Shown here: positions 4,339 through 41,726 of the stretch, one piece after another
Position numbering within the stretch: the first letter of the stretch is position 1
How the letters are laid out: every line of letters begins with the position of its first letter
DNA from: an uncultured Gammaproteobacteria bacterium
GTDB lineage: Bacteria > Patescibacteriota > Patescibacteriia > UBA9570 > XYC2-FULL-38-9
Direction of reading: 5' to 3'
NCBI GenBank assembly: GCA_964344485.1
Contig: CAYFNF010000003.1
Span: 148,467-212,466, forward strand
DNA: 64,000 nucleotides
Program-made: the position numbers and the translations under genes
Notes under the pieces: model-generated
Told to the model about the DNA's origin: nothing
Seen by the model: only the letters and a program-made list of their open reading frames with translations
The model's database searches: none

Positions 4339-4389
4339 ACTGTGGGTACTATAACAAAAAAATGAATTAAAAAAAAGGGCGATCTGGAA

Positions 4390-9925: not shown

Positions 9926-11320
<1,395 letters not shown>

Positions 11321-17600: not shown

Positions 17601-18210
17601 CATCAATCACTTCTCTTGCACTCTCTCGTGCTGAACCCAAACTACGACGTCCTTGTCGCGATGAAACACCCTGGTCTGTTTGCAGATCTGCAACTGCTTC
17701 ACGAATGAGCTCCACAATGCGTTCATGTGCTTGCAATTGCGCTACTGCACGTTTGTGTGCTCTACTACATGTTCTGACCAACCAATGTGCTCCTGATAAC
17801 TGACGGGTACGAGCCTGCATCGCTCCGCTTATAACTGCAAGATTGCTTTCAAACGTACGTTCAAACGGCAATTCCACCACAGTAACGTCATACATGCTTA
17901 AGGTGTCAAGTGCTATCTCCTCCCATTCTGTTAAGAATTGAGCGTACTCCTGCTCTATTGCCTGCAATTCCTGTTCGAGCGCTTCTAGGCTTGCTTCAAG
18001 GTGCGCGTTCATTTCATCGTAACTCTCGCCTTGGAATACTTCACGTGCAGCAAGTAGTTCTTCTACACGCTGAGCCACTCCTTCTATGCGTTGCTGCACC
18101 CCTTGAAATCGTTCAAGCATAGCTCTGCCACGTTCAACAAACTGCTCATGATGTTCATGGTACTGAGCCTCTATTGGTGTTTGGTGATTTTCGCGAATAG
18201 GTGCATTCAT
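14671..18210 (-). CDS. giant hypothetical protein (1179 aa): N-terminal coiled-coil, central HEAT/PBS-lyase-like repeat, acidic DEEFEEFEEF patch
   Basis: Uninterrupted ORF 4 nt downstream of the 1849-aa gene; LGKLGNPKAIEPLLE HEAT-like repeat; no catalytic motif recognised. Confidence 0.65.
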   Translation of the reverse strand: MNAPIRENHQTPIEAQYHEHHEQFVERGRAMLERFQGVQQRIEGVAQRVEELLAAREVFQGESYDEMNAHLEASLEALEQELQAIEQEYAQFLTEWEEIALDTLSMYDVTVVELPFERTFESNLAVISGAMQARTRQLSGAHWLVRTCSRAHKRAVAQLQAHERIVELIREAVADLQTDQGVSSRQGRRSLGSARESAREVIDDRLYAEAQQRTAEIVEQQEQLYALAGSTELHDRINARLREMHIQPIVDELLERHPGLEPQIRQWEQAVVALLTNDGNSRHPDDLRIGGERVQTFNGWEDRAGRALTDEFPRRPGDRFMMLHDRDRELRRAVEWAPSDIDRSNWENPNQQTRNLLRLFADWRAHRDFNREVVPYDRPTAAIKHQRRSLRDDAIQHVGNNDELIKILRGTQRIRLLRDDPEVAAIATDEEFEEFEEFLIETLMRDMIRPGGRESGHGTDAAMDLGKLGNPKAIEPLLEHIFYAGSGHTTVLIFSIIRRLAQSEEGRAHLEAMPGIERALIAQMVDEDSVLYQETSDVYGRTRLLSKGEFFVARAQLADLFSDTEVPEMFSFMDMPERSAFVAGLLPDGTSVGILLRQREEVERRVLEARDMTPWWTIHGLTAALAANPEFMEQIGQEAIGQEEGDAMDNFRRLLAHKKVRRSHQSRGILLQGFLRMRAQGEQGAAVLQDMMQRYRDTRDDPRRVREMFRSFEMLERFGCMEYDYDPTERLEAIRAALANIELILPRLDPPTRKAIRTRRRALIKEEQELTGLVGPTEHYRDRVATVLTDRLGVSAEIGHAIADNIDAHDRSGFLDMSTTLLLSFEAKKVDDPVEALRSVIEHHVVGDFASWKYTHECAEDQIGFLGDQREHWIETEDAVQVERSDEEQDLLEQQRSAALGLLDDADAHFAEFTADRTDDDAVTAIARQLAAVREQLTATPLERGAVLRMAMRLQQQCEAASLHQVASDVNQLYRPFTVSEVGTVTAEEFDDELRMIRLGTEPSETCQSWKRGAYNECLLSYVVDANKKGINVRGEEGEILLRCVERITQIRETNTEGEHPTLFLEPAYKTIDHPRVYQAFAQLAFNKAESCGASVSITPHVWCEQALQAFYEEAARRGATVRGDTEENKGEERDMYIARTQNEYQYSDSFGGKLSDYNTYRRAAIMEFVLPSAEQASE

Positions 18211-18214
18211 ATAT

Positions 18215-21200
18215 TTATGTTGTTATCCTACCATATCCCATTACTGTTGGAAGTAGTCTCATTGGGCTAATATCTCGATATCGTGTCTTGCCTGGTTCCC
18301 CGGTTGGCTCTTCCATGCGAGCAAGATACGCCCCGGTTGCTAGAGACTTCATAAATTTCTCGAACCCTTCATGGATTGCGCGTCCTCCTTCAGAGATAAT
18401 CATCAATACCTCTTTATACTTCTCACCGGTTTCCAAGGTGCCTGACACCACCGCAGCAACACGTTCTAACTGTTCTGCTTCAACATCAGGCACAAACGTG
18501 CGAATTCCCTCTTGCACTAACGCCGGGTTCTGGAATTGTGCGAGCATGCCTAAGAATATCTTCTTAATGCTATCAATCTCTGTTTGCGCGATCTCGCCCG
18601 CGCTTCCAAGGTCCAGCTCTCCGAGTTCACCATCTGGCGTGACCACCCAATTTCCTGGGTGCGGATCTGCTTGAAATCGTCCTTTCACGAATATTTGATA
18701 CATGAGCGCGTCAAACGCTTGTACGTGGATATCTTCTAATCGACCGACGAGACCTTCATACGCAGTCATTTCATCTGGCTGCAAGTCGTATTTCGCTTGA
18801 AAATCTGCCAAGGTGCGTCGCCCCATTGCTACGTCAGTTAATTCTCGTAACGACAACCCTCGAATCTCCTCTTCTAATATATGTTCTTCACTGTGATCTA
18901 GGATCTCTGCAATGCGCACCGGGAACAGACGCGCCATAGCTGCTTGTGGGTAGTCTTCCATAGCCGCAGCCACTGCTTCATGATTCCGTACTTCTTCTTG
19001 GAAGTTTGCCTCATCACGTAACCAACGACCGATACGATCTTCCAAACCATCAGGTACAGTAAAATCTGCTTCGCGAAGATTTCCCATAATCCTATTCAGT
19101 ACCCGAAGGTCTTCCCCGAGATGCTTTGCAATAGATGGTCTTCGCACTTTTGCAATCACACGCTGTCCGTCTTCTCTAGTCGCACGATAGACTTGTTTAA
19201 TTGACGCAGCAGAGATTCGTCTGTCCATAGAAACCAGCCGATGTGGATGGCCTTCTTCAAACTGTCCCACTGCTCCCATCATGTGCATGCTGGCAGTACG
19301 GTGGAACGTTTTTGCGTTCTGTTGGAGCTTGCGCAATTCCTCGGCGATGTCATCAGGGAGCAACGGGGTACCGTCCGCGTTCTTTTCTTCAGCTAAGACT
19401 TGGCCTGCTTTAATACCGACTGGCCCGACCGCTTCTAGTAATCCACGCAGGCGTTCTCCAATTGTAGAGTCTCCTTGTCCGCGTAGTACTTCCATCATCT
19501 CGATGTAGACTTTTGCACGTCGGAATGGACCGTACTCTTGTAATGCAGTTGTAAAGATCACTCGTACTGCTTCTCTTCCTCTCTCTCCCAGTGCTTCTGC
19601 TGCTTCAGGTGGAAAGACTCGCTCAAACGATCGATCAATAAATTCTTGGAATATCGCTTCGTCTTCTTCTTCGCGCGGGTCCATGACACCGTTCTCTCCA
19701 AAGAGCAAACGGATATAGGTCTCTTCGCGTTCCTGTGGAGTGGCTGCAAAGAGTAGGTCTGGCATGTCTTCCACTGAGCACTCATTATGTCCACCGAATG
19801 CACGTAATATGCGCGGAGGTTGATCAGTCTCTCCGATAGTCCATAATACAAATTCTTTTCTGTCTTCACGGTTTAAATATGCTAAAACCGAATTGATTTT
19901 CTCTACTGTAGATTGTTGTGATAGTTCTGCGTCCTCGGTGGTGCGTCGTTGTACATCAAAAAGACGGCGTGTGATTTCCCGTGCTTGTGGAGGAGTGCGG
20001 ACTACGCCAGTATCTCCAAGTTGCAATAGCGCTTCACCCCGTACATGTGATGCGTGTGGGTAGAGCTCACTGATACGATCCAATTCGCTCGCAAAGGTCT
20101 CTTCCCCTGTTGCAAGGTGTTCTCGGAATAATGAATTCGCTCTTCGTGACCAAAGCTGCTGATGCGCTTGATCTGCAAACAGTGGAATGGTTCGTTGATA
20201 AAACGTATATAGTTCATGTGCAACATCTGGCTGAATCTCGTTCCCTTCTGGTGCAACAACTTCGTGTCCGTTCGTAGTAAGGCCACGCTCTTGTAGTAAT
20301 GCTGTTTCTATGGCGCCTAATAATTCATCACGATAATTCGTCACCTCTGGAATGAGTTCTTGAACGCGGTCCACTCTTCCAACTGCGGGGATCGAGGGAT
20401 CCGCTGGTAATTGAGTGTAGTCTATATAGAACTCTAGTGCATTGTACCGCTCTGAGTATTTGCGGTCCCCTCGGAATATCGTAGTAAAGCTCGGCGCAGA
20501 AGGATCATACGCTGCAGCATCAGATTCGATATTACGGGGGATCAACTCACTAGTGCTTTTTGAATAATGCGACTCTCGATCTATCGGGTGATAACGTTGA
20601 ACGAATCCACTCTCCACCACCTCATCTGGAAGCGCTCCTGGATGATACACTCGAAAGATGTCGCGAAGCTGCGTATCACGTGTGGAAACTGGAACAAACT
20701 GCGTTATAGCTGCAACACTCTCATCTTCTGATCGCTCATCTGGTTCCACATGCCATCTGCCCCATTGCCATATAATGCCGTGCGCTTCTAGTGCTCGTTG
20801 CATAATTGAATATGTAACCCCGCGATCAATACGATCCACGCCCCATTCTCCACTTCTATCTTCGGCTTGTTTGCATTTCCCTTCTATCTCTACGCAATAC
20901 CGTGCGAGCTCTTCTAGCTCTGGCTGAGTGAGTGCATCAAATGCTGCTTGTAAATCTGCAGCGTGTGGTGAAACGCTGGTATCAAAATTAATCGCGCCGT
21001 CTCGCAGCACTCTCTTCAGCGGCGCAACGATGGAATCGCCTGGATTAAGCACCATATACAACCGAACATACTCAATAGACAGCGAAATGCTATAGATAGC
21101 AGCTGCTTTATCGCGCTCTGTATAATCCTCAACTTCACGTCTGTCGATACAGTCGCTATCCCACTTCGGTACCACATCAAGTGCTGCCTCTAAAAAGTCT

Positions 21201-23764
21201 AACTGCTCTTGCTCTGACATACGTGCTCGTCGCTCTGCATCATTCCATGCTCCTCGAATGTGCGTCCATATTACTGAGGGATCTTCTCCTTCTAGAAAGC
21301 GGAGCATCTCTGCAGGTGGAACAGAATCAGAACATGATGATATAATCGCATCCAGAAACTCTTGTCGAGCTCGTTTAGATTCATACGTCACTGCAGGGTA
21401 TAGATGAAGTATCGGTGCGGCTCGCTCAACTAAGTCATCGTATGATGCTATCCCGACTTCATGCAACAATCCAACTAACTCAGCTTGATGCAGAGAAGCA
21501 ACTTCAGCATGGGAAACCTGTAAAATACTATGCATCTGTTCTAGGCGTTCTTGAGGGGTGAGTGTTTGAAACCCTTCTCTCTCAGCTCGTGCTTGGATCG
21601 CACGAGTTACCACGTGCTCCCATAATACATAGATAGCATCAGCACCGCGGAGAGGTGCGTCAAATCCTGTTTCTTCTAAAAATAATTCGTTCGCTGAGGG
21701 TCTCGCTTCTATAGCTGGTTGTGGAAAGTGGCGTAACCACTGTTCACACTCCTGTTGTGAAAGTGTTGCAACAAAACCTTCAAGTTCCGCGGGTTGATAT
21801 CCTCTTGCAGATAACTTCATGGCGAGTTCAGCAACCAACTGTCCAAGTGTAGCGGCGTGCTCTGCTGAAAGTAATGCGCGACCCTCTGCGCTAGTAGTAT
21901 ACCGCTGTGCAAACCGCTGAGCGAGTTCCGGAAGTATACGATCAACAGTAGGAGAAGGAATGGTCCGTGGTTCTAAGGCTGGCATGGATTCTCCTGTGGC
22001 AATTGCTTGTCCTAACGCGGCAAGCGCTTCATTGTCATCACTATCAAACGCGTTTCGCGCTTCCATCATGAGAACTTGCCTGATGACTGCTACTCTTCCC
22101 TCTGGAGTTGAGACATCATCTGCTCTACGTAACTCTTCAGGTAGATAATGCTCTCTTGTGAGGTCGACTGTTAAGACACCTTGAGTGAGTTTGTCCAGCT
22201 GCATCTTCCAATTGCGTGCTTGGTCATGAAAAAATGGGGTACTGCTTTCACTGCAGAGAGTCATAAGCTCTTCAGGCTCTGCTGCACGCACTTGCTCTTT
22301 TACTGCATCATTATATTCATATCCGTCTTCTTTCGGCCCGTCGATATCTGCGTTAGAAATAAGCGTGTCTAGCGTGTCAGCGGACACACCATCAACTACT
22401 GCTTCTAGCTGTGCACGAAGATGCTGTACTTTACGTTGTAGTTCAATACGTGCTGCAAGCTTTGCTGCTTTTTCATGATCGTCCGGGTCTTCATCAGCAG
22501 CTGCTTGCGCTTGTGGAATTTGCTCACTGAGAAACCGTAGTGTTTCATCATATGCTTTGATTACTTCCGCGCGTTGCCGCTGCAGTCGCGTGTGCAGCGA
22601 TCGTTCAAATTTCTCTTCGTCATACGGCCCTTCCTCTACTTGTGCCCCAAAATCAAATTCTCTATCCATATATCGAGAGAGTTTATCCGGTGCTACCGAA
22701 GCCCTTGCCAAATACTCTGCTCTTCCTTCAGAGTAATGGTAACCGTAATATGCGGCATGTAGTGCATTGAGCACTTCTGCAAAATTGTGAAGCACAATCC
22801 TCTGTGCATAGTGTTTTCGCATTCGCTCCTGCTCTGCTGCGTGATGAAATAACGCGTGACGATCTAATACAAAAGCAGCAACACCAACTTCAACCGCATC
22901 ATGAAAACTCTCAGCTTGAGCGATCATGTCTTCAATATGGTCTAAACCCTCAGCACGGTACAATCGCGTGCCAGGTCGGCCGGGTGGTTCATCGATAAAT
23001 GCACGTTGCACTTCTGCTGGAACAACGGTCGGCTCTTTTTCAATATTCGGTAGCCAGGTGTCTGGGCTCTCCACTAACTCCACGAGCTCTCTATATCTAT
23101 CAGCGGATCGAGGGTGGGATGTTCCAATAGGCAGATCATTCGATAGGCTTAATAGAAACTGGATAGCTGCTAATCCCTCACGTGGATTATATCCAGCTTG
23201 TGCAAGTGCGATCAGTCCACCACGGTCAGCGTCGTATTCCGCATTCAAGCGGCGCTGCTTCTCATCGTGATCTGGATAGTCTTCATGAACGACGCCTTCT
23301 TCAGTATGCTGATCAATATGTGTACTTTCATGCGCTGCCACCATAGCGATCATGTCTTCGGTCATTGGTCGACCGTGTCGTTCGCACCAGCGCCCAAGTT
23401 CTCGCAGCAATCCCATGTATGTGTAGACGTGCGCGTGCCCGCTTACGACAAACGCATTAATTCCGGGTGAATCAATTGCAACCACATCAGTGGCGGGAAT
23501 CGATAACTGCCGCTCAATTCTTGCTTGAATGCGTGCCAGCATCTCTTTTCGCGGATCATCATCATCTAGAATTCCAAAACGCTGCTCCAATTGATAGAGC
23601 ATTCGTCGTAAATACGCTTCTGTTTGGTCTTGCCTACTTTGTGCTTCTGCAAGCCCAATTATTTCTACTCTTGGCGGTTCATCATGATCAACTTCAGGAA
23701 CTTCAGCAATTGAACGTGCTGGTCGTGGTAGTCTGGATTCTGATGCTGCAGCGTGTGAGTTCAT
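18215..23764 (-). CDS. giant multidomain protein (1849 aa): N-terminal M48-family zinc metalloprotease domain + C-terminal ABC1/UbiB-type atypical kinase-like domain
   Basis: M48 signatures INAFVVSGHAHVY, HESTH(x)..., EYDADRGGLIALAQAGYNP. ABC1 signatures VGPVGIKAGQVLAEEKNADGTPLLPDDIAEELRKLQQNAKTF, ISAASIKQVYRATREDGQRVIAKVRRPSI, FQADPHPGNWVV. Confidence 0.75.
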   Translation of the reverse strand: MNSHAAASESRLPRPARSIAEVPEVDHDEPPRVEIIGLAEAQSRQDQTEAYLRRMLYQLEQRFGILDDDDPRKEMLARIQARIERQLSIPATDVVAIDSPGINAFVVSGHAHVYTYMGLLRELGRWCERHGRPMTEDMIAMVAAHESTHIDQHTEEGVVHEDYPDHDEKQRRLNAEYDADRGGLIALAQAGYNPREGLAAIQFLLSLSNDLPIGTSHPRSADRYRELVELVESPDTWLPNIEKEPTVVPAEVQRAFIDEPPGRPGTRLYRAEGLDHIEDMIAQAESFHDAVEVGVAAFVLDRHALFHHAAEQERMRKHYAQRIVLHNFAEVLNALHAAYYGYHYSEGRAEYLARASVAPDKLSRYMDREFDFGAQVEEGPYDEEKFERSLHTRLQRQRAEVIKAYDETLRFLSEQIPQAQAAADEDPDDHEKAAKLAARIELQRKVQHLRAQLEAVVDGVSADTLDTLISNADIDGPKEDGYEYNDAVKEQVRAAEPEELMTLCSESSTPFFHDQARNWKMQLDKLTQGVLTVDLTREHYLPEELRRADDVSTPEGRVAVIRQVLMMEARNAFDSDDNEALAALGQAIATGESMPALEPRTIPSPTVDRILPELAQRFAQRYTTSAEGRALLSAEHAATLGQLVAELAMKLSARGYQPAELEGFVATLSQQECEQWLRHFPQPAIEARPSANELFLEETGFDAPLRGADAIYVLWEHVVTRAIQARAEREGFQTLTPQERLEQMHSILQVSHAEVASLHQAELVGLLHEVGIASYDDLVERAAPILHLYPAVTYESKRARQEFLDAIISSCSDSVPPAEMLRFLEGEDPSVIWTHIRGAWNDAERRARMSEQEQLDFLEAALDVVPKWDSDCIDRREVEDYTERDKAAAIYSISLSIEYVRLYMVLNPGDSIVAPLKRVLRDGAINFDTSVSPHAADLQAAFDALTQPELEELARYCVEIEGKCKQAEDRSGEWGVDRIDRGVTYSIMQRALEAHGIIWQWGRWHVEPDERSEDESVAAITQFVPVSTRDTQLRDIFRVYHPGALPDEVVESGFVQRYHPIDRESHYSKSTSELIPRNIESDAAAYDPSAPSFTTIFRGDRKYSERYNALEFYIDYTQLPADPSIPAVGRVDRVQELIPEVTNYRDELLGAIETALLQERGLTTNGHEVVAPEGNEIQPDVAHELYTFYQRTIPLFADQAHQQLWSRRANSLFREHLATGEETFASELDRISELYPHASHVRGEALLQLGDTGVVRTPPQAREITRRLFDVQRRTTEDAELSQQSTVEKINSVLAYLNREDRKEFVLWTIGETDQPPRILRAFGGHNECSVEDMPDLLFAATPQEREETYIRLLFGENGVMDPREEEDEAIFQEFIDRSFERVFPPEAAEALGERGREAVRVIFTTALQEYGPFRRAKVYIEMMEVLRGQGDSTIGERLRGLLEAVGPVGIKAGQVLAEEKNADGTPLLPDDIAEELRKLQQNAKTFHRTASMHMMGAVGQFEEGHPHRLVSMDRRISAASIKQVYRATREDGQRVIAKVRRPSIAKHLGEDLRVLNRIMGNLREADFTVPDGLEDRIGRWLRDEANFQEEVRNHEAVAAAMEDYPQAAMARLFPVRIAEILDHSEEHILEEEIRGLSLRELTDVAMGRRTLADFQAKYDLQPDEMTAYEGLVGRLEDIHVQAFDALMYQIFVKGRFQADPHPGNWVVTPDGELGELDLGSAGEIAQTEIDSIKKIFLGMLAQFQNPALVQEGIRTFVPDVEAEQLERVAAVVSGTLETGEKYKEVLMIISEGGRAIHEGFEKFMKSLATGAYLARMEEPTGEPGKTRYRDISPMRLLPTVMGYGRITT

Positions 23765-23832: not shown

Positions 23833-26800
23833 TTATGCAGCAGCAGCTGGCGGCTCGGGTTGCTGACGATGTCGATGATGGCTGAACCATGCTATACCAA
23901 CTAAGAATATAATGACGATTCCAATGTTAATCATCACCAGCATGGTGGTGCTTGAGAGGCGATTCTTCTCTTCAATCACAAACCGCGTGATCTCGACCTG
24001 GTCAGATTTCACACCGTTTACTTCGGTTTGAGCAAAAACGACGTGATCTCCTTCACCGAGCAACTCTGCTGGAACCGTAATACTCCATTTACCGTTGGTG
24101 TCTACTTGCGCGACTTTTACTAATGGGTCTGAATAGATCGTCAGAATTGCCACAGCAGACATCTCTCTATACTGCTCAGCAATCTCTCCGGAGATAGTAA
24201 TCTCGTTCTTCTGTTCTTCGACTGTGCCGCCGAATAATCGTCTTGTTGCATCAATAATATCCCACTGCTGAACTTGCGTATAGGTGACGGTCCCATCATC
24301 TGATACCGTCGGTTCGATTGTAGTGCTATCTTGCTGGAACTCTATATCCGCAGTGTCTTGCAGCTGTCCAGTCTCGGTGGTCTGCAATTCTTCTCTTTGC
24401 TGCTTGGTCAGCGGCACGACTTCATCTGTATATGTATACGGATTCTCTGGCGGTTGTTTGACTCCATCCTCAGCATATTGTGTTTTTATTAGCTCTTCAA
24501 ATTTCTTTACGTTCACTACAACCACATCTGGAAGGCCGGTGTCGGTTGAACCCCCTTGGATTGGGTTGGTGCCGTACTTCACTTCATCACTATCTGATAC
24601 GCCGTCGTCATCAGAATCCGTGTCTGTTGGGTCAGAACCCAAATCCACTTCGTCGGAATCGCTTACCCCATCTTGATCTGAGTCCGCGTCTTCTGGATCA
24701 GTACCTAGCTCTTTCTCTTGTTCATCAGTCAGGCCGTCTCCGTCACTATCGGTCTCAGCTGGCTCGGTGTCAGTTCCTTGGTCAGGGCCTGGGTCTGTGC
24801 CCTGGCTCGGATCGCCGGTGTCAGTGTCTGGAGTATCAGTAGAAGGAGTTTCTTGAGGGGTGGCAGGGGCTACGGGTACGCTCACAGGAGCACTTACTGG
24901 TGCTGACACAGTAAAGGTGATTTCATTCGAAGTAGTCTCTGGATAGCCAGCTTGTTCAGAAGTGACAGCGTATGCAGTATGCGTGCCTGTAGATAGTGCA
25001 GATGGACGACATGCAACAGAGCTGGTCTCTCCACCACCAGTTGCAGTAGTATCGCAAATTCTCTGCCCATCAACATAGATTTGGGTATAAGCACCAGTAC
25101 GTGCTAATAGAGTAATCCATGGTCGGTTATATGATGTCTGCGCGTCCACCACAACTTGTTGCATCACTGCTGCAGGGTATGGGGTTGCGCGTACAATAGT
25201 CTGTGGAGTAAATACCTTTATCACAGTATCTTTTTTCGTATTCACGACCTTTACCTTGATCGCATTCGCTCCAATTGATAGTGCGGTGGTTGGTGTGCCC
25301 TGATATGAAATCACTGGACCAGTGTCGCTGGTAATAGCAGCAGTTCCGCTCAACGTACCGTTTACGAACAGTTGTACTGCAACATCATCCACTGAGATAT
25401 TTCCGATATAGACGTTACCGAAAAAGACCGGGTTCTTACTAAACGTCACATTCGAAGTCAATTTACTTCGCTCCTCTTTTGGATAGATATGAAATCGATC
25501 TGACACTACAGAAGATCCGACCGTATACCGGACACTGGATGTCTTTCCCACATTCCCTTTCTTATCTTCGATATTTGCCTCAGACGTATGTTTGTCGTAA
25601 TTCTTCTGGATCTGCGAATCTACCTCCCATTCTCCTTGCGCGTCTGTGGTGTCAGAACCGTCTAACTCACCTTCGGTATATACAGAAACTTCAGACTCTG
25701 TTTCAGCAGTTCCACTAAATGAAACGTATTGGTTGTAAACAATGTCATTTTGTTCTGGCTCTTCGATTACTGCTGCAGGCGGGCCGATTGAGAAACTCGC
25801 GGTCTTCTCCCACTCTGTGGAGCTGGATCTACTAGCGGTCTTCACTTTTGTGTACAGCTCCCAGAGTCCGCGCTTCAGTGTAAACTCTGTTTCTGCTGTG
25901 CCGTTACTGCCGACCTGTTCTTCATTGATCTTCTCTGCGCCGTTCTTTACGCGCACAAATTTAAACACCACCCACTGGCCAGTGGTTCCGGTTGCTGATA
26001 GCTCTACCTTCAGACGACCGGTATCCTCCTGTGCACTCAGTCGATGTACGCTCGAAGGATCACTTCGCAACTGCTCTCCATTTACTGTTAGTGCGGTGGG
26101 TAACAGTGATGACGCTGATCCTTCCTGTGTAGTGAATGAGTCTACTGAAGAGTTCGATGTATTACTACTCGCATCCGCGCTCACTACCTGATAGTAATAT
26201 GTAGTGCTGCTTAAAAGCCCTGATACAGTCACTGAATGGCTCTTTGTTAATCCACTAGTTGTTTGTGACTGCGGAATTTGCTCAGTCTTTCCATATCGTA
26301 CTTGTGATGTTGCTTTTTCATTCGTGGTCCAAGTAATAACCGCGGATGTAGAACGGCGAGTGACTTGAATATCTGAAATAGTGGGCGCCGAAAGGTCTCC
26401 AGTATCTGTGGTTGGGATTACTGACCCTGAAGTAAACTGAGATGTATTGTTTGATGAGTCTGTTAGCGTTGCAGTGACTTTATAGTTAGAAGCATATGAT
26501 TCTAGAGTGCTCTTGGGAACATCAACGCTCCATGTTAAACTCGTGACCGCTGCTTCTGTTATATAGACCTCGCCTTCATTATTCCGGTCTACAAAGACCT
26601 CCACTGTTCCGTCACTAGATGCAGTACCCGAGACAGTGTATGTATCTCCTTGCAAAGAAATTGCACTGATCACTGGGGTAGCAAGCCCCTCATTTGCTCC
26701 ATCAATTAGATTAATTCCACTTGAGGAGTTGTTATAGATAGAATTCTGTGTTACTAAATTGTATTTAGTTCCACTTTGAGAGATGTTCAATCCATCTGCA

Positions 26801-29202
26801 TAGGCGTTAGTAACTATGTTGCCCGGTCCAATGGTGTTGCTCTGACTAGTATTGGAGAGTGTTACTGCGTTCCACTGACACGGAAGCGGATCACCGTTTG
26901 TATCGATGCCGATCCTGTTTGATGAGAGAGTATTGTTTGAAGAGTCAGCAAATACCACACAGCGGTCTATATTGCCGATCACATTATCACTAATGGTGTT
27001 CCCAGTGCTGTTCGCTCGAATGATAATTCCATATACGTCATCCTGAGTAACAGGTTTCGTGATACCAATCCTATTACTGGAAATCACATTATTAATTCCA
27101 CCTTGCATTAGAATGTTCATGACATTGCCCGCAATAGTGTTGCTACCATTGATAGTGTTAGAACTGCCAGTGAGTTCAAGGCCGACAGCATTCTGCATCA
27201 CCGTTTGTTTACTCACTGCGAGGCCAATAGTATTCCCAGTGGCGGTGTTACTGTCTCCTTCAATCCATAACCCCACGCCGCTATGGTTAGAGATGAAATT
27301 CGTAGATATAGAATTACTATCGCTTTCAGTATCAATCACAAGACCGTTTGTGGTGTTTCCGATATTCGTATCACTTGCAGATACACCGATGTAGTTATCT
27401 GAGAGTGTGTTTGAATCAGAGGAATAGATAGCAATGCCCGATTCATTAAAACCAATGACATTAGATTGCGATGTTCCAATTCTACTATTTGATACTCCAG
27501 TAAATAGAATTCCGGTTCCAGTGTTCCCTCGATCGACTAGTGAAGCGTTGGTTCCAATATAATTACCCTCTATCGCTAGCTGAGAGATGTTTCCTGCGCT
27601 GCTATTTGCCTCAATACCATTTGATAGATTTCCAGAGATAGTATTCTTCGAAATCGATACCGCATTCGCGCTAATGGCAATAGAGATGCCATCCTCACCA
27701 TTCGAAACCGCTGCTCCACTTGAATCCAATCCAATAGTATTCTCAGTTATTGTGACATCGCTATCGTTTTCCAAGTAAATCCCATTTGCATCATTTCCTG
27801 AAATCACGTTATTCGGACCAATCGTTGTGTCTGCCCCACCAAAGATTCCGTCAGTATTTGGAATGGCTGTTCCAGAACTGTTTAATCCAATATAGTTCCC
27901 GGTGATTGTTCCAGTGCTCTGGTTCACTACTACCCCTGACTGGGTATTACCTGCAATAGTGTTGTTCGAAAGTGTATTCGCTCCTTGAAATGTTACACCG
28001 TTATTATTTTCAACTGCGCTCGTGCCGTTACTATCTACTCCGATATTATTCTTATTCACCGTGTTCCCAGATGTAGTTGCTTCTAAGAAGATACCTGACT
28101 TTGTATTGCCTGAAATTGTATTGCCAACGATCGTGTTATTGTTTCCGGTTACTCGAATACCTGAATCCCCATTAGTGGATTTTGTGGAACCGTCTGCAGT
28201 TATACCTATATAGTTCAAACCGATAGTACTGCTACTGCCTCGCAATTCAATTCCGTTGCTCGTATTTCCAGAGATGATATTGCGGAACGCTTGGTTGCTG
28301 CTATCTCCAATAGTGATGCCAGATACCGTCGCTGCTATATTAACTCCGTTTATCCCATTAGCGGTGATAGTGTTAGAACGCAATACATTAGTATTTGAAT
28401 TCTCGATAAAATTCACTCCCTGCTCAGAATTATTCGATATCGAGTTACCGGTTACCGTGGTGCTGGTTGCAGTGCCCCCAAAATAGATTCCGTTACGATT
28501 GCCTTTGATTGTGTTGCCTGAAATGGCATTATTACTCGATGCGACCTGAATGCCTTCACCCCCTGCAAAGCCTTCTATCGTGAAATTTGATATCTGACAA
28601 TTATCCGCTCGGATAGCTAGCCCATCATTATCTTGAGCTGCTGACAGCGCGCTCCCTTCAATGCCAACTCTGTTATCCCCATCGATTATAAGTTCATCAG
28701 TAATCGCGGGTAGCACACTTGAGGTTACTGCTATCTTTCCGTTTAATGAACTATTGAAACTGATCACGTCAGCACCAAGACTCGCGTTTGCATCGAGTAT
28801 AGCTTGCCGCAAAGATCCCGCACCGCTGTCATTCAAGTTTGACACAGTGAAATTAGCAGCATACGCGACTTTGATCTGATTCACCGGTAGCACTACAGAT
28901 GAAATTGCATACAAGAGAATAACCACTGCAACAAAGAACGCGGTGACTAACCCGCTGCGTAGTCGTATCTTTTTTCTGCGACTGTGATGCTCATGATACG
29001 AAAAACCCCAGATCCCTTTATGGTCTTGGTCATATAATGTACAGAATGTGTGCTGAGGTGGATAGAAAATGATATAGAAATATTCGTACAGCACGTATGC
29101 TATATATAGTGGAACGAGCGCAATGCCTAAAAGGACACGAATAATGAACGGTCGGGGTTTGGCTTGTACGTAGCACTCAATATGATTGATGGTTTTTTTC
29201 AT
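23833..29202 (-). CDS. giant cell-surface protein (1789 aa): N-terminal TM/signal, GSLRQAI (CSLREA-like) motif, many parallel beta-helix repeats, FN3-like domain, TSP3-like Ca-binding D-x-D-x-D-G repeats, C-terminal TM anchor
   Basis: Repetitive N.I.GN...GI units typical of right-handed beta-helix; DSDGDGLTDEQE/DSDQDGVSDSDE/DSDDDGVSDSDE repeats; C-terminal hydrophobic LVMINIGIVIIFLVGIAWF + HHRHRQQ. Confidence 0.8.
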   Translation of the reverse strand: MKKTINHIECYVQAKPRPFIIRVLLGIALVPLYIAYVLYEYFYIIFYPPQHTFCTLYDQDHKGIWGFSYHEHHSRRKKIRLRSGLVTAFFVAVVILLYAISSVVLPVNQIKVAYAANFTVSNLNDSGAGSLRQAILDANASLGADVISFNSSLNGKIAVTSSVLPAITDELIIDGDNRVGIEGSALSAAQDNDGLAIRADNCQISNFTIEGFAGGEGIQVASSNNAISGNTIKGNRNGIYFGGTATSTTVTGNSISNNSEQGVNFIENSNTNVLRSNTITANGINGVNIAATVSGITIGDSSNQAFRNIISGNTSNGIELRGSSSTIGLNYIGITADGSTKSTNGDSGIRVTGNNNTIVGNTISGNTKSGIFLEATTSGNTVNKNNIGVDSNGTSAVENNNGVTFQGANTLSNNTIAGNTQSGVVVNQSTGTITGNYIGLNSSGTAIPNTDGIFGGADTTIGPNNVISGNDANGIYLENDSDVTITENTIGLDSSGAAVSNGEDGISIAISANAVSISKNTISGNLSNGIEANSSAGNISQLAIEGNYIGTNASLVDRGNTGTGILFTGVSNSRIGTSQSNVIGFNESGIAIYSSDSNTLSDNYIGVSASDTNIGNTTNGLVIDTESDSNSISTNFISNHSGVGLWIEGDSNTATGNTIGLAVSKQTVMQNAVGLELTGSSNTINGSNTIAGNVMNILMQGGINNVISSNRIGITKPVTQDDVYGIIIRANSTGNTISDNVIGNIDRCVVFADSSNNTLSSNRIGIDTNGDPLPCQWNAVTLSNTSQSNTIGPGNIVTNAYADGLNISQSGTKYNLVTQNSIYNNSSSGINLIDGANEGLATPVISAISLQGDTYTVSGTASSDGTVEVFVDRNNEGEVYITEAAVTSLTWSVDVPKSTLESYASNYKVTATLTDSSNNTSQFTSGSVIPTTDTGDLSAPTISDIQVTRRSTSAVITWTTNEKATSQVRYGKTEQIPQSQTTSGLTKSHSVTVSGLLSSTTYYYQVVSADASSNTSNSSVDSFTTQEGSASSLLPTALTVNGEQLRSDPSSVHRLSAQEDTGRLKVELSATGTTGQWVVFKFVRVKNGAEKINEEQVGSNGTAETEFTLKRGLWELYTKVKTASRSSSTEWEKTASFSIGPPAAVIEEPEQNDIVYNQYVSFSGTAETESEVSVYTEGELDGSDTTDAQGEWEVDSQIQKNYDKHTSEANIEDKKGNVGKTSSVRYTVGSSVVSDRFHIYPKEERSKLTSNVTFSKNPVFFGNVYIGNISVDDVAVQLFVNGTLSGTAAITSDTGPVISYQGTPTTALSIGANAIKVKVVNTKKDTVIKVFTPQTIVRATPYPAAVMQQVVVDAQTSYNRPWITLLARTGAYTQIYVDGQRICDTTATGGGETSSVACRPSALSTGTHTAYAVTSEQAGYPETTSNEITFTVSAPVSAPVSVPVAPATPQETPSTDTPDTDTGDPSQGTDPGPDQGTDTEPAETDSDGDGLTDEQEKELGTDPEDADSDQDGVSDSDEVDLGSDPTDTDSDDDGVSDSDEVKYGTNPIQGGSTDTGLPDVVVVNVKKFEELIKTQYAEDGVKQPPENPYTYTDEVVPLTKQQREELQTTETGQLQDTADIEFQQDSTTIEPTVSDDGTVTYTQVQQWDIIDATRRLFGGTVEEQKNEITISGEIAEQYREMSAVAILTIYSDPLVKVAQVDTNGKWSITVPAELLGEGDHVVFAQTEVNGVKSDQVEITRFVIEEKNRLSSTTMLVMINIGIVIIFLVGIAWFSHHRHRQQPEPPAAAA

Positions 29203-29465
29203 ATCTCAGGATAACAAAAAGGCCTTCTCCTCAATAAAAAGCCTTTATTTTTCTATTCAATGAATGCATATACTATTGTCTGGTTTTGTTTTTGTTTTTG
29301 AACTGACTACATATAGAATTTTAACATTTTTAAGATTGTTTGTCAAACAATAAAATCCGGGAAAAAGCGGGTTTTGCTGTCCGCAGGATACAAAAAAAGC
29401 CAGGGACCCACGATCGGGTGTGGCGTTAGCTCAGGAACGGGTGACGCGGTGCTGCGTCGGTCCGG

Positions 29466-29759
29466 CTACGCGCTGGGCGCGTCGCTGGCCAGGGCCAGCA
29501 GGCCGTCCGGCATGACCGCGGCGAGCGTACCGAGGTGGCCGACGCCGTTGGCGCCGCTCGAGCCGTTCCCGGGCTCGTTGGACTGCGCGTCCTGGTCGGC
29601 GGTACCGCCGTCGCTGCTGCCGTCGTCGTCCGGGCTCTTCCTCTGGCTGCTGCCGGGCAGGCCGTCCGCCTCGCCACGTCGGGCGAGCTGGGCCGTGAGG
29701 TTCTGTGAGCCACCGACTCCGCGGTGCAGGGGGCAGGCGTTCCGTCGTCTCTGCGTCAT
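29466..29759 (-). CDS. small Gly/Ser/Asp-rich protein (97 aa) in about 70% GC island
   Basis: GAGGAG RBS 6 nt upstream of ATG; third-codon-position GC about 95% in this frame over a 60-nt sample, versus Arg/Pro/Ala-rich nonsense in overlapping frames. Confidence 0.45.
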   Translation of the reverse strand: MTQRRRNACPLHRGVGGSQNLTAQLARRGEADGLPGSSQRKSPDDDGSSDGGTADQDAQSNEPGNGSSGANGVGHLGTLAAVMPDGLLALASDAPSA

Positions 29760-29880
29760 CTCTTCTCCTCGTCAGTTCGACGTTCGCGCAGGCGTTGGGC
29801 AGGAGCCCAACTAAAAGCATCGAGTTGCCTCGAGCTTAACGCAAGAACTCTACACGAAAGTCTAATATTTGTCAAGAGTA

Positions 29881-33878: not shown

Positions 33879-34313
33879 TCATATTGAACAATAAAAAAAA
33901 GCTGCTGTTGCAGGTACTGACCAGGCTGCGGCTACGCGGGTGAGTGCGAGTCTGTCACGTCGCAGAACTCGTTCCGGTACCTCCAGGGCAGTGAGCTGCC
34001 CCGCGGTGTAGCGCTGCCAGATGATGAGCTGATCCAGGTGCGTTCCCGGGATGCTGCTGAGCGCAGCGTTGGTGCGGCGCACAGCCGTGAGCACGGTCAT
34101 GGGAGGTGCACCGTTGGCAGATGCCTCGGTTCCGCTGGCCACGTAGATGCGGCCCTCTCCACGTACCTCGTCCAGCTCCTCGCTGGTGAAGCCCCCGCCC
34201 AGTGAATCGGGCTTGAAGACCTGGAGGCTCCCGATCTCCACCACCAGCCTGAGCGCGGTCTCGCTGGCGTACAGCACGTGCGTCGGCGTTCCAGAAGTTG
34301 TGTTGCAGTTCAT
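33879..34313 (-). CDS. hypothetical protein (about 144 aa) in GC-rich island
   Basis: High-GC CDS with GGAG RBS upstream of MNCNTTSG start; no motif recognised; boundaries tentative. Confidence 0.35.
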   Translation of the reverse strand: MNCNTTSGTPTHVLYASETALRLVVEIGSLQVFKPDSLGGGFTSEELDEVRGEGRIYVASGTEASANGAPPMTVLTAVRRTNAALSSIPGTHLDQLIIWQRYTAGQLTALEVPERVLRRDRLALTRVAAAWSVPATAAFFYCSI

Positions 34314-34523
34314 ACGTTCGCTCCAGCACTGTCCTTTCAATGCAGCTATGGGTGTTCCCACCAACAGGGTATACCATAGCAGGAATAAATATGCAAACCA
34401 CTCTCATACGTCACACTATATAAGACATGATATGAAAACTGCTTGACTGTAACACCAAAACTACCTATTATCAGGGACGGAATAGTCTTTGTCGCCGTAT
34501 GAACCTGTTGGAATGGAGGTGTT

Positions 34524-34856
34524 TTGAGCGCCGCAGCCCACGACCGAGACTTCCCGCGTACGCGAGGTGAACCCGTCGAGACCGATGACGATGTCCGTGT
34601 CGCACTGCAACGACTCGAAGCCATCCCCGCACTGGAAGGTGCAGTGGCAACGATCGTGGCCTGGTGCTTCGTGGCCTTCGCGGTCAAGGAAGGATGGTGG
34701 CACGCCATCCTGATCTTCACCCTCGTGGGATGCGTGATCGCGTCTCTGGCGTGTATCGTCCACCGGGCCGACCTGAACCGGAAGTACATCCGGTCGTTCC
34801 TGTTCTTCTTCCTGGTCTGGCCACTGGTGATGACGGTCAAGGTCAAGAGCTTCTGA
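34524..34856 (+). CDS. small two-TM membrane protein (110 aa), GC-rich, TTG start
   Basis: GGAGG 4 nt upstream of TTG; upstream TTGACT-17-TATTAT promoter at about 34443-34471; two hydrophobic helices. Confidence 0.4.
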   Translation: MSAAAHDRDFPRTRGEPVETDDDVRVALQRLEAIPALEGAVATIVAWCFVAFAVKEGWWHAILIFTLVGCVIASLACIVHRADLNRKYIRSFLFFFLVWPLVMTVKVKSF

Positions 34857-36710: not shown

Positions 36711-37376
36711 TTAAATGTCAAAGTCGTTACTTAGTAGTTTGTCGATCTCATCATCCAGATCCTCAATAGATCGAGTCTCTTTTGGTTTCTCCTCTGTTGC
36801 TGTGTCTTTCACTGGCACAGCTTTCTTTACCTTCTTCTCTGGTGCGCTCTTGGTGGTAGTGGTTGCAGTTGCAACGGTCTTTGCGGCCGGCTTCTTTGTT
36901 GCTGCTTTCTTCTCCTCTTCTTCCGCACGTTGTTCTTCTTGCGCTTTCATATATCGCTCTTGTTTACGTGCATCGATCTTCTTTTGAATGCGCTCTTCCT
37001 CTGCGAGTTCTTCAGCTGTCTTCTCCCGCTTCTTGATAATGAGAAAGCGAGTCACCTTCTTATGAATACGAAGCTTCTCTTGCAATAGAGCAAGTTGTGA
37101 CTTCAAGAGATTAAACTCTGCCACGAAGTAGACACCACTACGTGAACCTTCTACCGTGTATGCGAGTGTACGGCTTCCAAGTGATTCGTCGAGTGTGATC
37201 TCTCCGTTAAAAGAAGTAATTGCGGATTTCACTTCTTCAAATACTGGCTCAGCTTGATCAGCGGTGAGCCCGCCCCCAACTAGCACCAATATTTCGTAGT
37301 GCTCCTTGAGCTCTTCTTTTTTCGGGAAGTCAAAAACCTCCCCCTGTTGCTCTTGCGCAACGTCTTGGTCTTGCAT
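36711..37376 (-). CDS. rpsF: 30S ribosomal protein S6 with Lys/Glu-rich C-terminal extension
   Basis: YEILVLV......A....E.V...I...G.I......G.R.LAY.V......G.Y; rpsF-ssb-rpsR synteny. Confidence 0.85.
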
Positions 37377-40544: not shown

Positions 40545-40546
40545 TT

Positions 40547-40576
40547 CGTTGACGGTTAGGCCATTTTTAGTATATA
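40547..40576 (+). promoter_or_regulatory. sigma-70-like promoter for 40605 gene (TTGACG, 18 bp, TATAAT)
   Basis: Consensus-like hexamers 28 nt upstream of ATG in divergent intergenic region. Confidence 0.4.
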
Positions 40577-40604
40577 ATATCAACACATTCATCGCAATAG
40601 CACT

Positions 40605-41677: not shown

Positions 41678-41726
41678 CAGCCTTTTGCGCGCAACAACGC
41701 GTGTTTGAGCTACCCTTCATACCTCT

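What the first reader, a model, noticed from the sequence alone, without database searches (positions are those of the whole stretch)
23833..29202. 1789-aa surface protein combining CSLREA-like motif, long parallel beta-helix array, FN3 and TSP3 calcium-binding repeats with both N- and C-terminal membrane anchors
The GSLRQAILDANA motif is followed by dozens of N.I.GN..NGI-type turns typical of right-handed beta-helix adhesins or glycan-binding proteins. Acidic DxDxDG repeats at 24480-24900 (visible as periodic gatc/gtcag DNA repeats) resemble thrombospondin type-3 repeats. A C-terminal hydrophobic helix plus HHRHRQQ suggests tail-anchoring. The protein is a likely episymbiont adhesin.
Basis: partly seen in the sequence, partly recalled or inferred. 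Interest (0 to 1): 0.6.

Follow-up and report, generated by a model that had tools for sequence, protein, structure and literature searches.

The report
Giant beta-helix surface protein of CPR bacterium
This is a real 1789-residue cell-surface protein of a Kerfeldbacteria-like ultrasmall (CPR) bacterium, built from a long beta-helix rod, a stalk of small beta-sandwich domains and a membrane tail anchor; it belongs to a conserved but uncharacterised lineage-specific family and is a plausible attachment or surface-coat protein, not a new kind of system.

Summary
The ORF (23833-29202, minus strand, 1789 aa) is real and is not an assembly artefact. HMM and structure tests confirm a ~720-residue right-handed parallel beta-helix, an Ig-like domain, an FN3-like domain, three bacterial TSP3 calcium-binding repeats and a C-terminal transmembrane helix followed by a basic tail. 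The CSLREA model (TIGR04214) is not matched. The genome is Patescibacteria/CPR, with Ca. Kerfeldbacteria as the nearest named relatives. New here: the protein belongs to a family of at least 56 representative proteins (50%-identity clusters). They share a ~115-residue N-terminal module and a C-terminal module. The N-terminal module is an amphipathic helix, a basic patch, one TM helix and a conserved AxA|A signal-peptidase-like site. The C-terminal module is an Ig-like domain, an 'SNTTW' motif, a TM helix and a basic cluster. So the N-terminal 'anchor' is probably an extended, cleaved signal peptide, and the mature protein would be tail-anchored only. In other family members the gene sits in conserved housekeeping synteny. 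Each examined locus has its own near-consensus promoter. Between orthologues the helix surface is variable and the stalk is conserved. Adhesin, surface-coat and enzyme roles cannot be separated with these tools. This is a new member of a known kind, of moderate interest.

The parts
29318..29346 (-). Own sigma-70-type promoter: TTGACA, 17 nt, TG-extended TAAAAT (11 of 12 matches)
   Evidence: Only four sites with >=11/12 matches occur in the whole 64-kb window, and this is the only one with the extended -10 TG. Equivalent promoters lie upstream of family members in L001, L002 and L004.
29218..29246 (-). Terminator-like hairpin (11 pairs plus a T-run) in the ~108-nt 5' leader, with a GAGGAG sequence in its loop/3' arm
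   Evidence: An analogous hairpin in L001 at 1210-1234 shows an A-T to G-C compensatory change, and another lies in L004 at 9946-9964. Its role (attenuator or mRNA stabiliser) is inferred.
23833..29202 (-). Complete ORF, 1789 aa plus stop codon
   Evidence: The identical protein P0001 is present in an NCBI assembly on a 301,665-bp contig.
28855..29202 (-). N-terminal module, aa 1-116. It has a short helix, a hydrophobic/amphipathic helix (19-46), the conserved 'P.KSF..D..G.W..SY.EH' stretch, the basic patch RRKKIRLR, a TM helix (84-106), then P106-x8-A113-Y-A115|A116.
   Evidence: KD scan. AF2 helices at 2-14, 19-46, 49-56 and 65-104. Conserved from M1 in the orthologue. An HMM of this module hits 56 family proteins at their N-termini. 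Segment 2 is TM-like in 55 of 56 and segment 1 in only 35 of 56. Segment 1 carries net charge +1.85 and has a higher hydrophobic moment.
26683..28854 (-). Right-handed parallel beta-helix, aa 117-840. By my estimate this is about 30 coils and ~14 nm. It includes the cap motif GSLRQAILDANA (aa 129-140, window 28783-28818).
26413..26682 (-). Ig-like beta-sandwich capping the helix C-terminus, aa 841-930
   Evidence: AF2 strands at 844-915. The domain co-aligns with the helix in most homologues, whose alignments end near aa 925.
26128..26391 (-). FN3-like domain, aa 938-1025
   Evidence: Pur_ac_phosph_N scores 35.1 bits against a cutoff of 30. PF00041 is sub-threshold. AF2 shows a sandwich. Foldseek hits tandem FN3/BIg structures.
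24907..26127 (-). About four further beta-rich domains, aa 1026-1432, with no family assignment. Conserved Cys pair C1383/C1398.
   Evidence: The AF2 model is low confidence (pLDDT 49 overall, ~80 for aa 1036-1140) but is all-beta. The only weak sequence relative is a Big_13/Big_6 protein. Orthologue identity is 40-64%. The cysteines are invariant in the orthologue.
24751..24906 (-). Pro/Thr/Asp-rich low-complexity linker, aa 1433-1484
   Evidence: It is only 23% identical to the orthologue, and other family members have different low-complexity linkers.
24553..24750 (-). Three bacterial TSP3 calcium-binding repeats, aa 1485-1550, 22-residue period
   Evidence: PF18884 scores 43.3 bits against a cutoff of 25. 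Regex matches. 66-nt DNA repeat spacing. 61% identical to the orthologue.
24223..24552 (-). Alpha/beta region, aa 1551-1660, unassigned
   Evidence: Two helices and short strands in a low-confidence model.
23836..24222 (-). C-terminal family module. It has a juxtamembrane Ig-like domain (aa 1661-1748), the motif SSTTM (family consensus SNTTW, aa 1750-1754), a TM helix (~1754-1775) and the basic tail HHRHRQQ.
   Evidence: KD scan. AF2 helix at 1751-1779. A profile search finds 1084 proteins at E<=1e-3. In about half of the best 150, including every protein the motif scan flagged, the match is one stretch over the whole module at the protein's C-terminal end. The rest match only the Ig-like part, many times over. 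That scan flagged 56 tails, 55 after excluding one chance match in a 7,021-aa multi-Ig protein. The Ig part weakly resembles Ca_tandemer (E 5e-4, below cutoff).

Best explanation
The gene encodes a Sec-exported giant cell-surface protein that is anchored in the membrane by its C-terminus. The host is a Kerfeldbacteria-like CPR bacterium, a group reported to have no outer membrane (PMC7906910). The first ~115 residues act as an extended signal peptide. They form a cytoplasmic amphipathic helix and a basic patch, then one TM helix, then a conserved AxA|A site where signal peptidase I probably cuts. The mature ~171-kDa acidic ectodomain starts directly with the beta-helix cap (GSLRQAILDAN). It projects a rigid beta-helix rod of about 30 coils at its distal end. 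Behind the rod come an Ig-like domain, an FN3-like domain and about four more beta-sandwich domains. Then follow a flexible P/T/D linker, three Ca2+-binding TSP3 repeats and a juxtamembrane Ig-like domain. A conserved TM helix with a basic stop-transfer tail holds the protein in the cytoplasmic membrane. The variable lateral surface of the beta-helix is the likely business end and would bind glycans or envelope polymers of a partner cell. The conserved stalk sets the reach and is stiffened by calcium. Shown here: the domain anatomy, the family, the conserved termini, the genome lineage, the promoter and the conservation pattern. Inferred: signal-peptide cleavage, high expression and the binding function.
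For: Domain anatomy. An ectodomain location is supported by two points. The hydrophobic ends flank an acidic (pI 4.2), T/S/G/N-rich (42%), Cys/Met-poor region. Two Cys pairs are invariant in the orthologue. Cleavable N-module: TM2 is present in 55 of 56 family members. The 'FP-x8-A-x-A-A' motif is conserved, and the helix cap begins at +1/+2. The same junction follows an ordinary short signal peptide in P0096. Family: the N- and C-modules co-occur in ~56 representatives, which carry Beta_helix, Pur_ac_phosph_N or CHB_HEX_C, and in some cases TSP3. Named members are from Ca. Kerfeldbacteria (PIW37044.1, MBI2415970.1). Core-gene behaviour: four other members sit in the same block of trmD, KH-domain, S16, SMC, RNase III, nusB and L32 genes, three of them directly after TIM. 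The window copy and its orthologue both follow PPDK. Promoter: a near-consensus extended -10 promoter is found in all four loci scanned. Conservation pattern: helix scaffold residues are 53% identical to the orthologue and other helix residues 26%. Stalk domain D4, the TSP3 repeats and the C-terminal Ig are 61-64% identical, and the neighbouring PPDK is 82%. No polar or catalytic-type residue is invariant in the helix body across 20 homologues. Biology: Kerfeldbacteria are reported as unusually strongly host-attached (PMC7906910). Adhesins are required for epibiotic growth of Saccharibacteria (PMC10633639).
Against: There is no direct evidence for any ligand, for expression level or for cleavage, and no signal-peptide or topology predictor could be run. 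The h-region of TM2 (~22 residues) is long for a cleaved signal peptide, and the N-extension is conserved, so it may stay as an anchor. The C-terminal half could not be modelled reliably (pLDDT 49). Conserved housekeeping synteny and one copy per locus are more typical of a structural coat protein than of a variable adhesin. The closest structural neighbours are mostly enzymes.
Confidence: 0.6

Rival explanations
1. Structural surface coat or S-layer-like protein. The family would be the main envelope protein of this lineage and would self-assemble on the cell through helix-helix or Ig contacts, with the TM tail as its anchor. Host binding would be secondary or absent.
For: The gene behaves like a core gene: one copy per locus examined, conserved housekeeping synteny across members as divergent as 27% identity. 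It has the best consensus promoter in the window and a long structured leader. Its composition is acidic, Ser/Thr-rich and Cys/Met-poor. CPR cells show a periodic surface layer (PMC7906910). S-layer proteins with beta-helix or Ig folds, and candidates in Patescibacteria, are reported (bioRxiv 10.1101/2024.05.28.596244).
Against: No lattice prediction or abundance data exist. There is no similarity to any known S-layer protein family in Pfam, NCBIfam or PDB sequences. A 45-50 nm rod-and-stalk protein is longer than typical S-layer subunits (my estimate). The helix surface, which would form lattice contacts, is poorly conserved.
Confidence: 0.25
2. Doubly anchored arch. The N-terminal module is not cleaved, so both ends stay in the membrane, and the ectodomain forms a hairpin loop with the Ig/FN3 region at its apex.
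For: There are two conserved hydrophobic helices at the N-terminus, and the whole module is conserved (49% to the orthologue; an HMM of it hits 56 members). The TM2 core is long.
Against: AxA|A is conserved ~9 residues after a helix-breaking Pro. Segment 1 is amphipathic and positively charged in many members and TM-like in only 35 of 56. Homologous helices start right after normal signal peptides. Only ~10 residues separate TM2 from the rigid helix cap.
Confidence: 0.25
3. Surface-tethered polysaccharide-active enzyme (lyase, epimerase or glycosidase) that degrades or remodels host capsule or cell-wall polymers.
Confidence: 0.1
4. Artefact: a collapsed or chimeric assembly of repeats, or a pseudo-ORF.
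For: The sequence is repetitive at the protein level.
Against: DNA repeats are short and at most 88% identical, and there are no tandem arrays. A collinear full-length orthologue comes from an independent sample and has the same upstream neighbour. The structure model is high confidence.
Confidence: 0.01

Closest known systems
PfbA of Streptococcus pneumoniae and the binding regions of serine-rich repeat adhesins (beta-helix/beta-solenoid surface adhesins of monoderm bacteria)
   Different: PfbA is ~700 aa, has a short helix and is covalently attached to the cell wall by LPXTG/sortase. Here the helix is ~720 aa, a ~900-aa stalk follows it, and anchoring is by a TM helix with a family-specific SNTTW-type motif. 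No LPXTG family was hit.
Giant Ca2+-stabilised Ig-repeat adhesins (SiiE, the 'Ca_tandemer' class)
   Same: Chains of Ig-like domains plus calcium-binding elements form an extended stalk. Foldseek's top hits for the Ig/FN3 pair are SiiE BIg domains. The C-terminal Ig weakly matches NF033510 (E 5e-4).
   Different: Those proteins are type 1 secretion substrates of diderm bacteria with dozens of near-identical repeats. Here there are few, divergent sandwiches, a Sec-type N-terminus and a TM anchor, and the NF033510 score is far below cutoff (20 bits against 50).
'CSLREA domain' / parallel beta-helix repeat proteins (TIGR04214, TIGR03804, PF13229)
   Same: The same helix repeat family and the same N-terminal cap consensus (G/C)SLR.AI..AN. 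Some homologues are labelled CSLREA by JGI.
   Different: The TIGR04214 model itself is not matched, and Gly replaces the eponymous Cys.
NosD (PF05048), the periplasmic beta-helix of the NosDFY system
   Different: No nosZ or nosFY genes are adjacent, and the context is PPDK and housekeeping genes. The helix is twice as long and part of a 1789-aa anchored protein. The match reflects the shared fold only.
Alginate C5-epimerases/lyases and phage tailspike depolymerases (pectin-lyase-like superfamily)
   Different: Sequence identity is 10-20%. No catalytic residues are conserved, and the helix surface is hypervariable.
Tail-anchored archaeal S-layer stalk proteins such as SlaB (comparison from memory, not tested here)
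   Same: An N-terminal Sec signal, beta-sandwich domains and a single C-terminal TM anchor in an envelope without an outer membrane.
   Different: No sequence or fold comparison was made, and no partner lattice protein is evident here.

Membership tests
Right-handed parallel beta-helix repeat proteins (PF13229 / TIGR03804; pectin-lyase-like fold) | HMM match above the curated cutoff | tested here: met
   PF13229 scores 110.5 bits (cutoff 25.9) and TIGR03804 scores 41 bits (cutoff 19.45).
Right-handed parallel beta-helix repeat proteins (PF13229 / TIGR03804; pectin-lyase-like fold) | Three-dimensional beta-helix fold | tested here: met
CSLREA N-terminal domain (TIGR04214) | Match to the TIGR04214 model | tested here: not met
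   No hit at E<=1 on the whole protein and none at E<=10 on aa 107-184. The motif is GSLRQA, not CSLREA.
Bacterial TSP3 repeat (PF18884) | Repeated DxDxDGxxDxxE calcium-binding motif matching the HMM above cutoff | tested here: met
   43.3 bits (cutoff 25), with three stretches at aa 1485-1550.
Bacterial TSP3 repeat (PF18884) | Actual Ca2+ binding | not testable with these tools
   Requires biochemistry.
Fibronectin type III (PF00041) | HMM match above cutoff | tested here: not met
   13 bits against a cutoff of 25. The related FN3-like model PF16656 passes (35.1 against 30), and the model is a beta-sandwich that hits FN3 pairs. Best described as 'FN3-like'.
NosD (functional family of the N2O-reductase maturation system) | Genomic association with nosZ and nosFY | tested here: not met
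   No such genes were found among the ORFs of at least 150 aa scanned against Pfam.
Sortase / exosortase-type C-terminal sorting signals (LPXTG, PEP-CTERM, PGF-CTERM and similar) | Match to a known sorting-signal model, or the signature motif before the TM helix | tested here: not met
   No NCBIfam sorting-signal hit at E<=10 on the last 122 aa. The motif is SSTTM/SNTTW. Tails after the TM range from a few to more than 60 residues in the family, which is unlike processed sorting signals.
Kerfeldbacteria-type 'N-module ... SNTTW-TM' surface protein family (defined here) | N-terminal ~115-aa module, plus C-terminal Ig-like domain, S(N/S)T(T/S)(W/I/M) motif, TM helix and basic cluster | tested here: met
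   The N-module HMM gives 4.7e-49 and the C-module profile 7e-56 for this protein. Fifty-six representatives carry the N-module at their N-terminus, and the C-terminal motif scan also flagged 56 tails (55 after excluding one chance match).
S-layer proteins | Self-assembly into a 2D lattice, and very high abundance | not testable with these tools
   Only indirect hints are available: the promoter, the composition and the core synteny.
Adhesins | Demonstrated binding to a host or partner ligand | not testable with these tools
   Inferred from architecture and lineage biology only.

The most novel reading that the evidence does not exclude
The family defined by the extended N-terminal export module and the Ig-SNTTW-TM anchor would be the lineage-specific attachment or coat organelle of Kerfeldbacteria-like CPR bacteria. 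It would be the molecular basis of their unusually strong host attachment. Its two conserved terminal modules would define a previously undescribed export and anchoring route for giant proteins in monoderm CPR cells. For example, the N-module could pace Sec export, and the Asn-containing TM helix could mediate oligomerisation or recognition by a dedicated factor.
Probability: 0.2. Interest if true: 0.6.

Novelty: new member of a known kind. Interest (0 to 1): 0.35.

Why it matters
CPR bacteria are mostly uncultured epibionts, and their host-contact molecules are almost unknown outside Saccharibacteria. This gene gives a concrete candidate for the surface protein of a Kerfeldbacteria-like lineage. 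That group is reported to stick to hosts more tightly than other CPR. The candidate is conserved and probably strongly transcribed. Its clear domain boundaries (distal helix, stalk, TSP3, anchor) can be used for antibody or cryo-ET labelling, heterologous expression and glycan-binding tests. The conserved terminal modules could also serve as search handles for surface proteomes in related genomes. It does not reveal a new molecular principle.

Tried and rejected
1. Source genome: two genome-contig scans (alignment-derived peptide patterns, then an exact 41-mer) found nothing. An exact lookup of P0001 found no recorded gene position. Taxonomy was instead inferred from ClpC homologues.
2. A homologue search with the middle and C-terminal parts, with the TSP3 region removed, returned one weak Big_13/Big_6 protein. 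Oddly it did not return P0001 or P0002 themselves, so it says little.
3. A metagenome scan for close relatives gave one distant beta-helix locus only.
4. The AF2 model of aa 1026-1789 was too poor (pLDDT 49) for fold search. The afdb50 library was unavailable.
5. The PDB sequence search found nothing.
6. Diversity-generating retroelement targeting was considered. No template/variable repeat pair, and no long repeat touching the gene, occurs in the window.
7. Sortase-type sorting was considered and rejected.
8. A NosD function was rejected on context.
9. The GC-rich block upstream was tested as a structured RNA. There are no Rfam hits and the folding z-scores are -1.0 and -0.15. It has no plasmid similarity and its ORF has no Pfam hit.
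Full report
OBSERVATION. The window has one uninterrupted ORF at 23833-29202 on the minus strand: 1789 aa with an ATG start. The identical protein is already in an NCBI assembly on a 301,665-bp contig, without a name. The motif GSLRQAILDANA lies at aa 129-140.

Pfam gives Beta_helix (8e-32, seven stretches), NosD (2e-29), TSP3_bac (3e-11, three stretches) and Pur_ac_phosph_N (2e-8, aa 945-1025). The classical fn3 model is sub-threshold at 13 bits against a cutoff of 25. NCBIfam gives only TIGR03804 para_beta_helix. TIGR04214 (CSLREA) is not hit on the whole protein, nor at E<=10 on the isolated segment.

The 66-nt DNA periodicity is visible. Hydropathy peaks lie at aa 16-46, 78-112 and 1748-1776, and the last is followed by HHRHRQQ.

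At the DNA level there are no tandem arrays in the ORF. The longest direct repeats are 20-41 nt at 60-88% identity. A collinear full-length orthologue (P0002, 1944 aa, 42-46% identity) comes from an independent sample, SRR27458548. Its upstream neighbour is the same: the pyruvate phosphate dikinase (PPDK) gene, 82% identical at the protein level.

STRUCTURE. An AlphaFold2 model of aa 1-1030, built with a 20-sequence alignment, has mean pLDDT 89.
- Helices at 2-14, 19-46, 49-56 and 65-104.
- A beta-helix from 117 to about 835, with pLDDT mostly above 90.
- An Ig-like sandwich at 844-925.
- An FN3-like sandwich at 941-1024.

The model of aa 1026-1789 is poor (pLDDT 49). It is all-beta up to aa ~1432 and unstructured across the acidic linker and TSP3 region. 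It then shows two helices, a final beta-sandwich and a TM helix at 1751-1779.

ORGANISM AND CONTEXT. The neighbours are housekeeping genes:
- dnaG, rpoD, PPDK, pyruvate kinase, efp and rpsF;
- clpC and recG;
- five tRNA genes.

The window's conserved proteins have no relatives above 90% identity. The best named ClpC homologues are Ca. Kerfeldbacteria (59%, 53%), followed by 'Patescibacteria group'. The CPR attribution is therefore supported.

A FAMILY WITH CONSERVED ENDS. About 110 of the 119 other listed homologues share only the beta-helix and its Ig cap. A few proteins (P0016, P0037, P0049, P0010) also align at both extreme termini.

A profile of the last ~135 residues was searched against 1.84 billion representative proteins. 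It found 1084 proteins at E<=1e-3 and 339 at E<=1e-10. The hits fall into two classes:
- giant proteins in which only the Ig-like part of the profile matches, many times over;
- a set of mostly 1200-2000-aa proteins in which the whole module matches once, at the C-terminal end (a few hits in this set are much shorter).

A motif scan of C-terminal tails flagged 56 proteins, 55 of them after excluding one chance match in a 7,021-aa multi-Ig protein. These carry an Ig-like domain, the motif S(N/S)T(T/S)(W/I/M) (consensus SNTTW, degenerate SSTTM here), a TM helix with a conserved internal Asn, and a Q-L-R-K-type basic cluster.

An HMM of the first ~116 residues hits 56 of the retrieved proteins at their N-termini. 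The two modules therefore frame one family. Six members scanned with Pfam show the same order of parts: Beta_helix/NosD, then Pur_ac_phosph_N or CHB_HEX_C/Fn3_assoc, and TSP3 in two of them. Named members are PIW37044.1 and MBI2415970.1, both Ca. Kerfeldbacteria and annotated only as hypothetical or 'right-handed parallel beta-helix repeat-containing'. Neither terminal module matches anything in Pfam or NCBIfam.

THE N-TERMINUS IS PROBABLY AN EXTENDED SIGNAL PEPTIDE. Across the 56 members the second hydrophobic segment is TM-like in 55. The first is TM-like in only 35. The first segment also carries net positive charge (+1.85) and a higher hydrophobic moment (0.29 against 0.15), as expected for an in-plane amphipathic helix. 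The stretch between the two segments is basic (+3).

After TM2 the family conserves P-x8-A-x-A-A, and the beta-helix cap starts at the next residues. In this protein that is P106...A113-Y-A115|A116. A homologue with an ordinary 40-residue signal peptide (P0096) has the same '...QA|AT-YTITNTND.G.GSLR' junction.

I infer cleavage by signal peptidase I. The mature protein would then be anchored only by its C-terminal helix, with the helix rod at the far end. This is inference, because no predictor or experiment was available. The uncleaved, doubly anchored alternative keeps about 0.25 probability.

EXPRESSION AND EVOLUTION. The gene has its own promoter: TTGACA, 17 nt, TG-extended TAAAAT at 29346-29318, matching 11 of 12 positions. 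Only four sites in the 64-kb window reach 11/12, and this is the only one with the extended -10 TG. Comparable promoters precede the family gene in L001, L002 and L004. The leaders are about 110-250 nt long. In three of these four loci (the window, L001 and L004) the leader holds a terminator-like hairpin shortly before the start codon. The window and L001 hairpins differ by a compensatory A-T to G-C change.

In four other members the gene sits in the same block of trmD, KH-domain, S16, SMC, RNase III, nusB and L32 genes. In three of them (L002/L003, L004 and L006) it directly follows the triosephosphate isomerase (TIM) gene; L005 has no TIM gene next to it. That is core-gene behaviour rather than island behaviour.

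Between P0001 and P0002, helix scaffold residues (N, G, I, V, L, F) are 53% identical and the remaining helix residues only 26%. Stalk domain D4, the TSP3 repeats and the C-terminal Ig are 61-64% identical, and the neighbouring PPDK is 82%. In a 20-sequence alignment the invariant helix columns are only N, G and aliphatic residues.

The ectodomain is 1634 aa, about 171 kDa, with pI 4.2 and 42% T+S+G+N. It has two Cys pairs that are invariant in the orthologue.

MECHANISM. The best-supported picture has four steps.
1. Sec export is driven by an unusually long N-terminal module.
2. The protein is retained in the cytoplasmic membrane by the C-terminal helix.
3. A rigid beta-helix of about 14 nm is held tens of nanometres from the cell by Ig/FN3-like sandwiches and a Ca2+-binding TSP3 segment. 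These dimensions are my estimates from residue counts.
4. The variable helix face contacts glycans or envelope polymers of a partner cell.

Literature gives context. Kerfeldbacteria were singled out as unusually strongly host-attached, and CPR cells lack an outer membrane and show a periodic surface layer (PMC7906910). Adhesins are required for epibiotic growth in Saccharibacteria (PMC10633639). S-layer candidates, including beta-helix types, have been reported across bacteria, and S-layer candidates have been reported in Patescibacteria (bioRxiv 10.1101/2024.05.28.596244).

The data do not separate 'adhesin' from 'structural coat'. Core synteny, the promoter and the composition lean towards a coat. 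The distal hypervariable helix and the lineage's biology lean towards an adhesin. An enzymatic role is least likely because nothing catalytic is conserved. It is not excluded, because most structural neighbours are enzymes.

COMPARISON AND NOVELTY. All the parts are known kinds: a pectin-lyase-like helix, Ig/FN3-like sandwiches, TSP3 repeats, a Sec signal and a TM anchor. The overall logic matches monoderm surface adhesins such as PfbA and Ca2+-stabilised giant adhesins. Membership holds for PF13229/TIGR03804 and PF18884. It fails for TIGR04214 and PF00041. It also fails for NosD as a functional family and for the known C-terminal sorting signals.

What is not in the domain libraries is the pair of lineage-specific terminal modules that frame the family. 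I file the protein as a new member of a known kind, belonging to an uncharacterised CPR family. Interest is moderate: it offers a concrete experimental handle on Kerfeldbacteria-host contact, but no new principle is demonstrated.

Noticed in passing
window 29391-29875 (minus strand); analogue in L001 682-1100: A ~380-bp island of 75% GC at 29420-29790 lies in 24-45% GC surroundings, between the PPDK terminator and the promoter of the big gene. It has its own TTGACA-17-TAGAGT promoter (29875-29847), a leader hairpin with a U-run (29833-29811), and a GAGGAG Shine-Dalgarno sequence followed by an ATG ORF of 97 aa (29466-29759) with GC3 0.91. The orthologous locus has a positional analogue of 70% GC with a 77-aa ORF and GC3 0.77. 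The two share only a 15-nt leader, TGCTTTTAGTTGGGC. There are no Rfam, Pfam or plasmid hits, and the region folds no more stably than shuffled sequence. It remains unexplained: a small disordered protein, an RNA, or a maintained GC-rich DNA element.
   Followed up: partly
window 29218-29246 (minus strand); L001 1210-1234; L004 9946-9964: A terminator-like hairpin sits in the 5' leader just upstream of the start codon of the surface-protein gene in three of four family loci. An SD-like GAGGAG lies in its loop/3' arm, and the window and L001 hairpins differ by a compensatory change. It may be an attenuator, a translational control element or an mRNA-stabilising element.
   Followed up: partly
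window 18215-23764 (minus strand): An 1849-aa ORF lies immediately downstream, 68 nt after the stop of the big gene. It combines an N-terminal Peptidase_M48-like HExxH region (aa 74-152) with a C-terminal ABC1/UbiB atypical kinase domain (aa 1516-1741), and has ~1300 unassigned residues in between. This is an unusually large architecture for an ABC1 protein. It is not conserved downstream of the orthologue in L001.
   Followed up: partly
window 14671-18210 and 37602-40592 (minus strand): Two further large ORFs (1179 aa and 996 aa) have no significant Pfam match. Both are singletons at 90% identity.
   Followed up: partly
window 59095-60081 and 62172-63317 (minus strand): Two proteins carry the T4SS_pilin domain (PF18895). 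One is fused to a Peptidase_M15_4 cell-wall hydrolase domain. This may be part of a type IV secretion-like cell-contact apparatus.
   Followed up: no
window 11088-11318 and 36868-36918: Lys/Ala-rich low-complexity coding repeats (15-18-nt periods) form an N-terminal histone-H1/HC2-like extension of RpoD. A similar repeat lies within the S6 gene, whose 221-aa product extends about 100 residues beyond the Pfam S6 domain.
   Followed up: no
window 4381-4890, 6311-7160 and 33901-34800: Several other 300-500-bp stretches or genes have 62-67% GC and GC3 of 0.7-0.8, against a genome background of ~45%. One example is a PRTase-like ORF at 4390-4914. This suggests recent acquisitions from higher-GC donors.
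   Followed up: no
window 63745-63992: An Ala/Gly-codon-rich repetitive stretch (9-30-nt periods, ~67% GC) runs off the end of the window.
   Followed up: no
window 41114-42662: An adjacent LemA plus Peptidase_M48 gene pair, followed by clpC. A TMEM43-family protein lies at 51210-52427.
   Followed up: no
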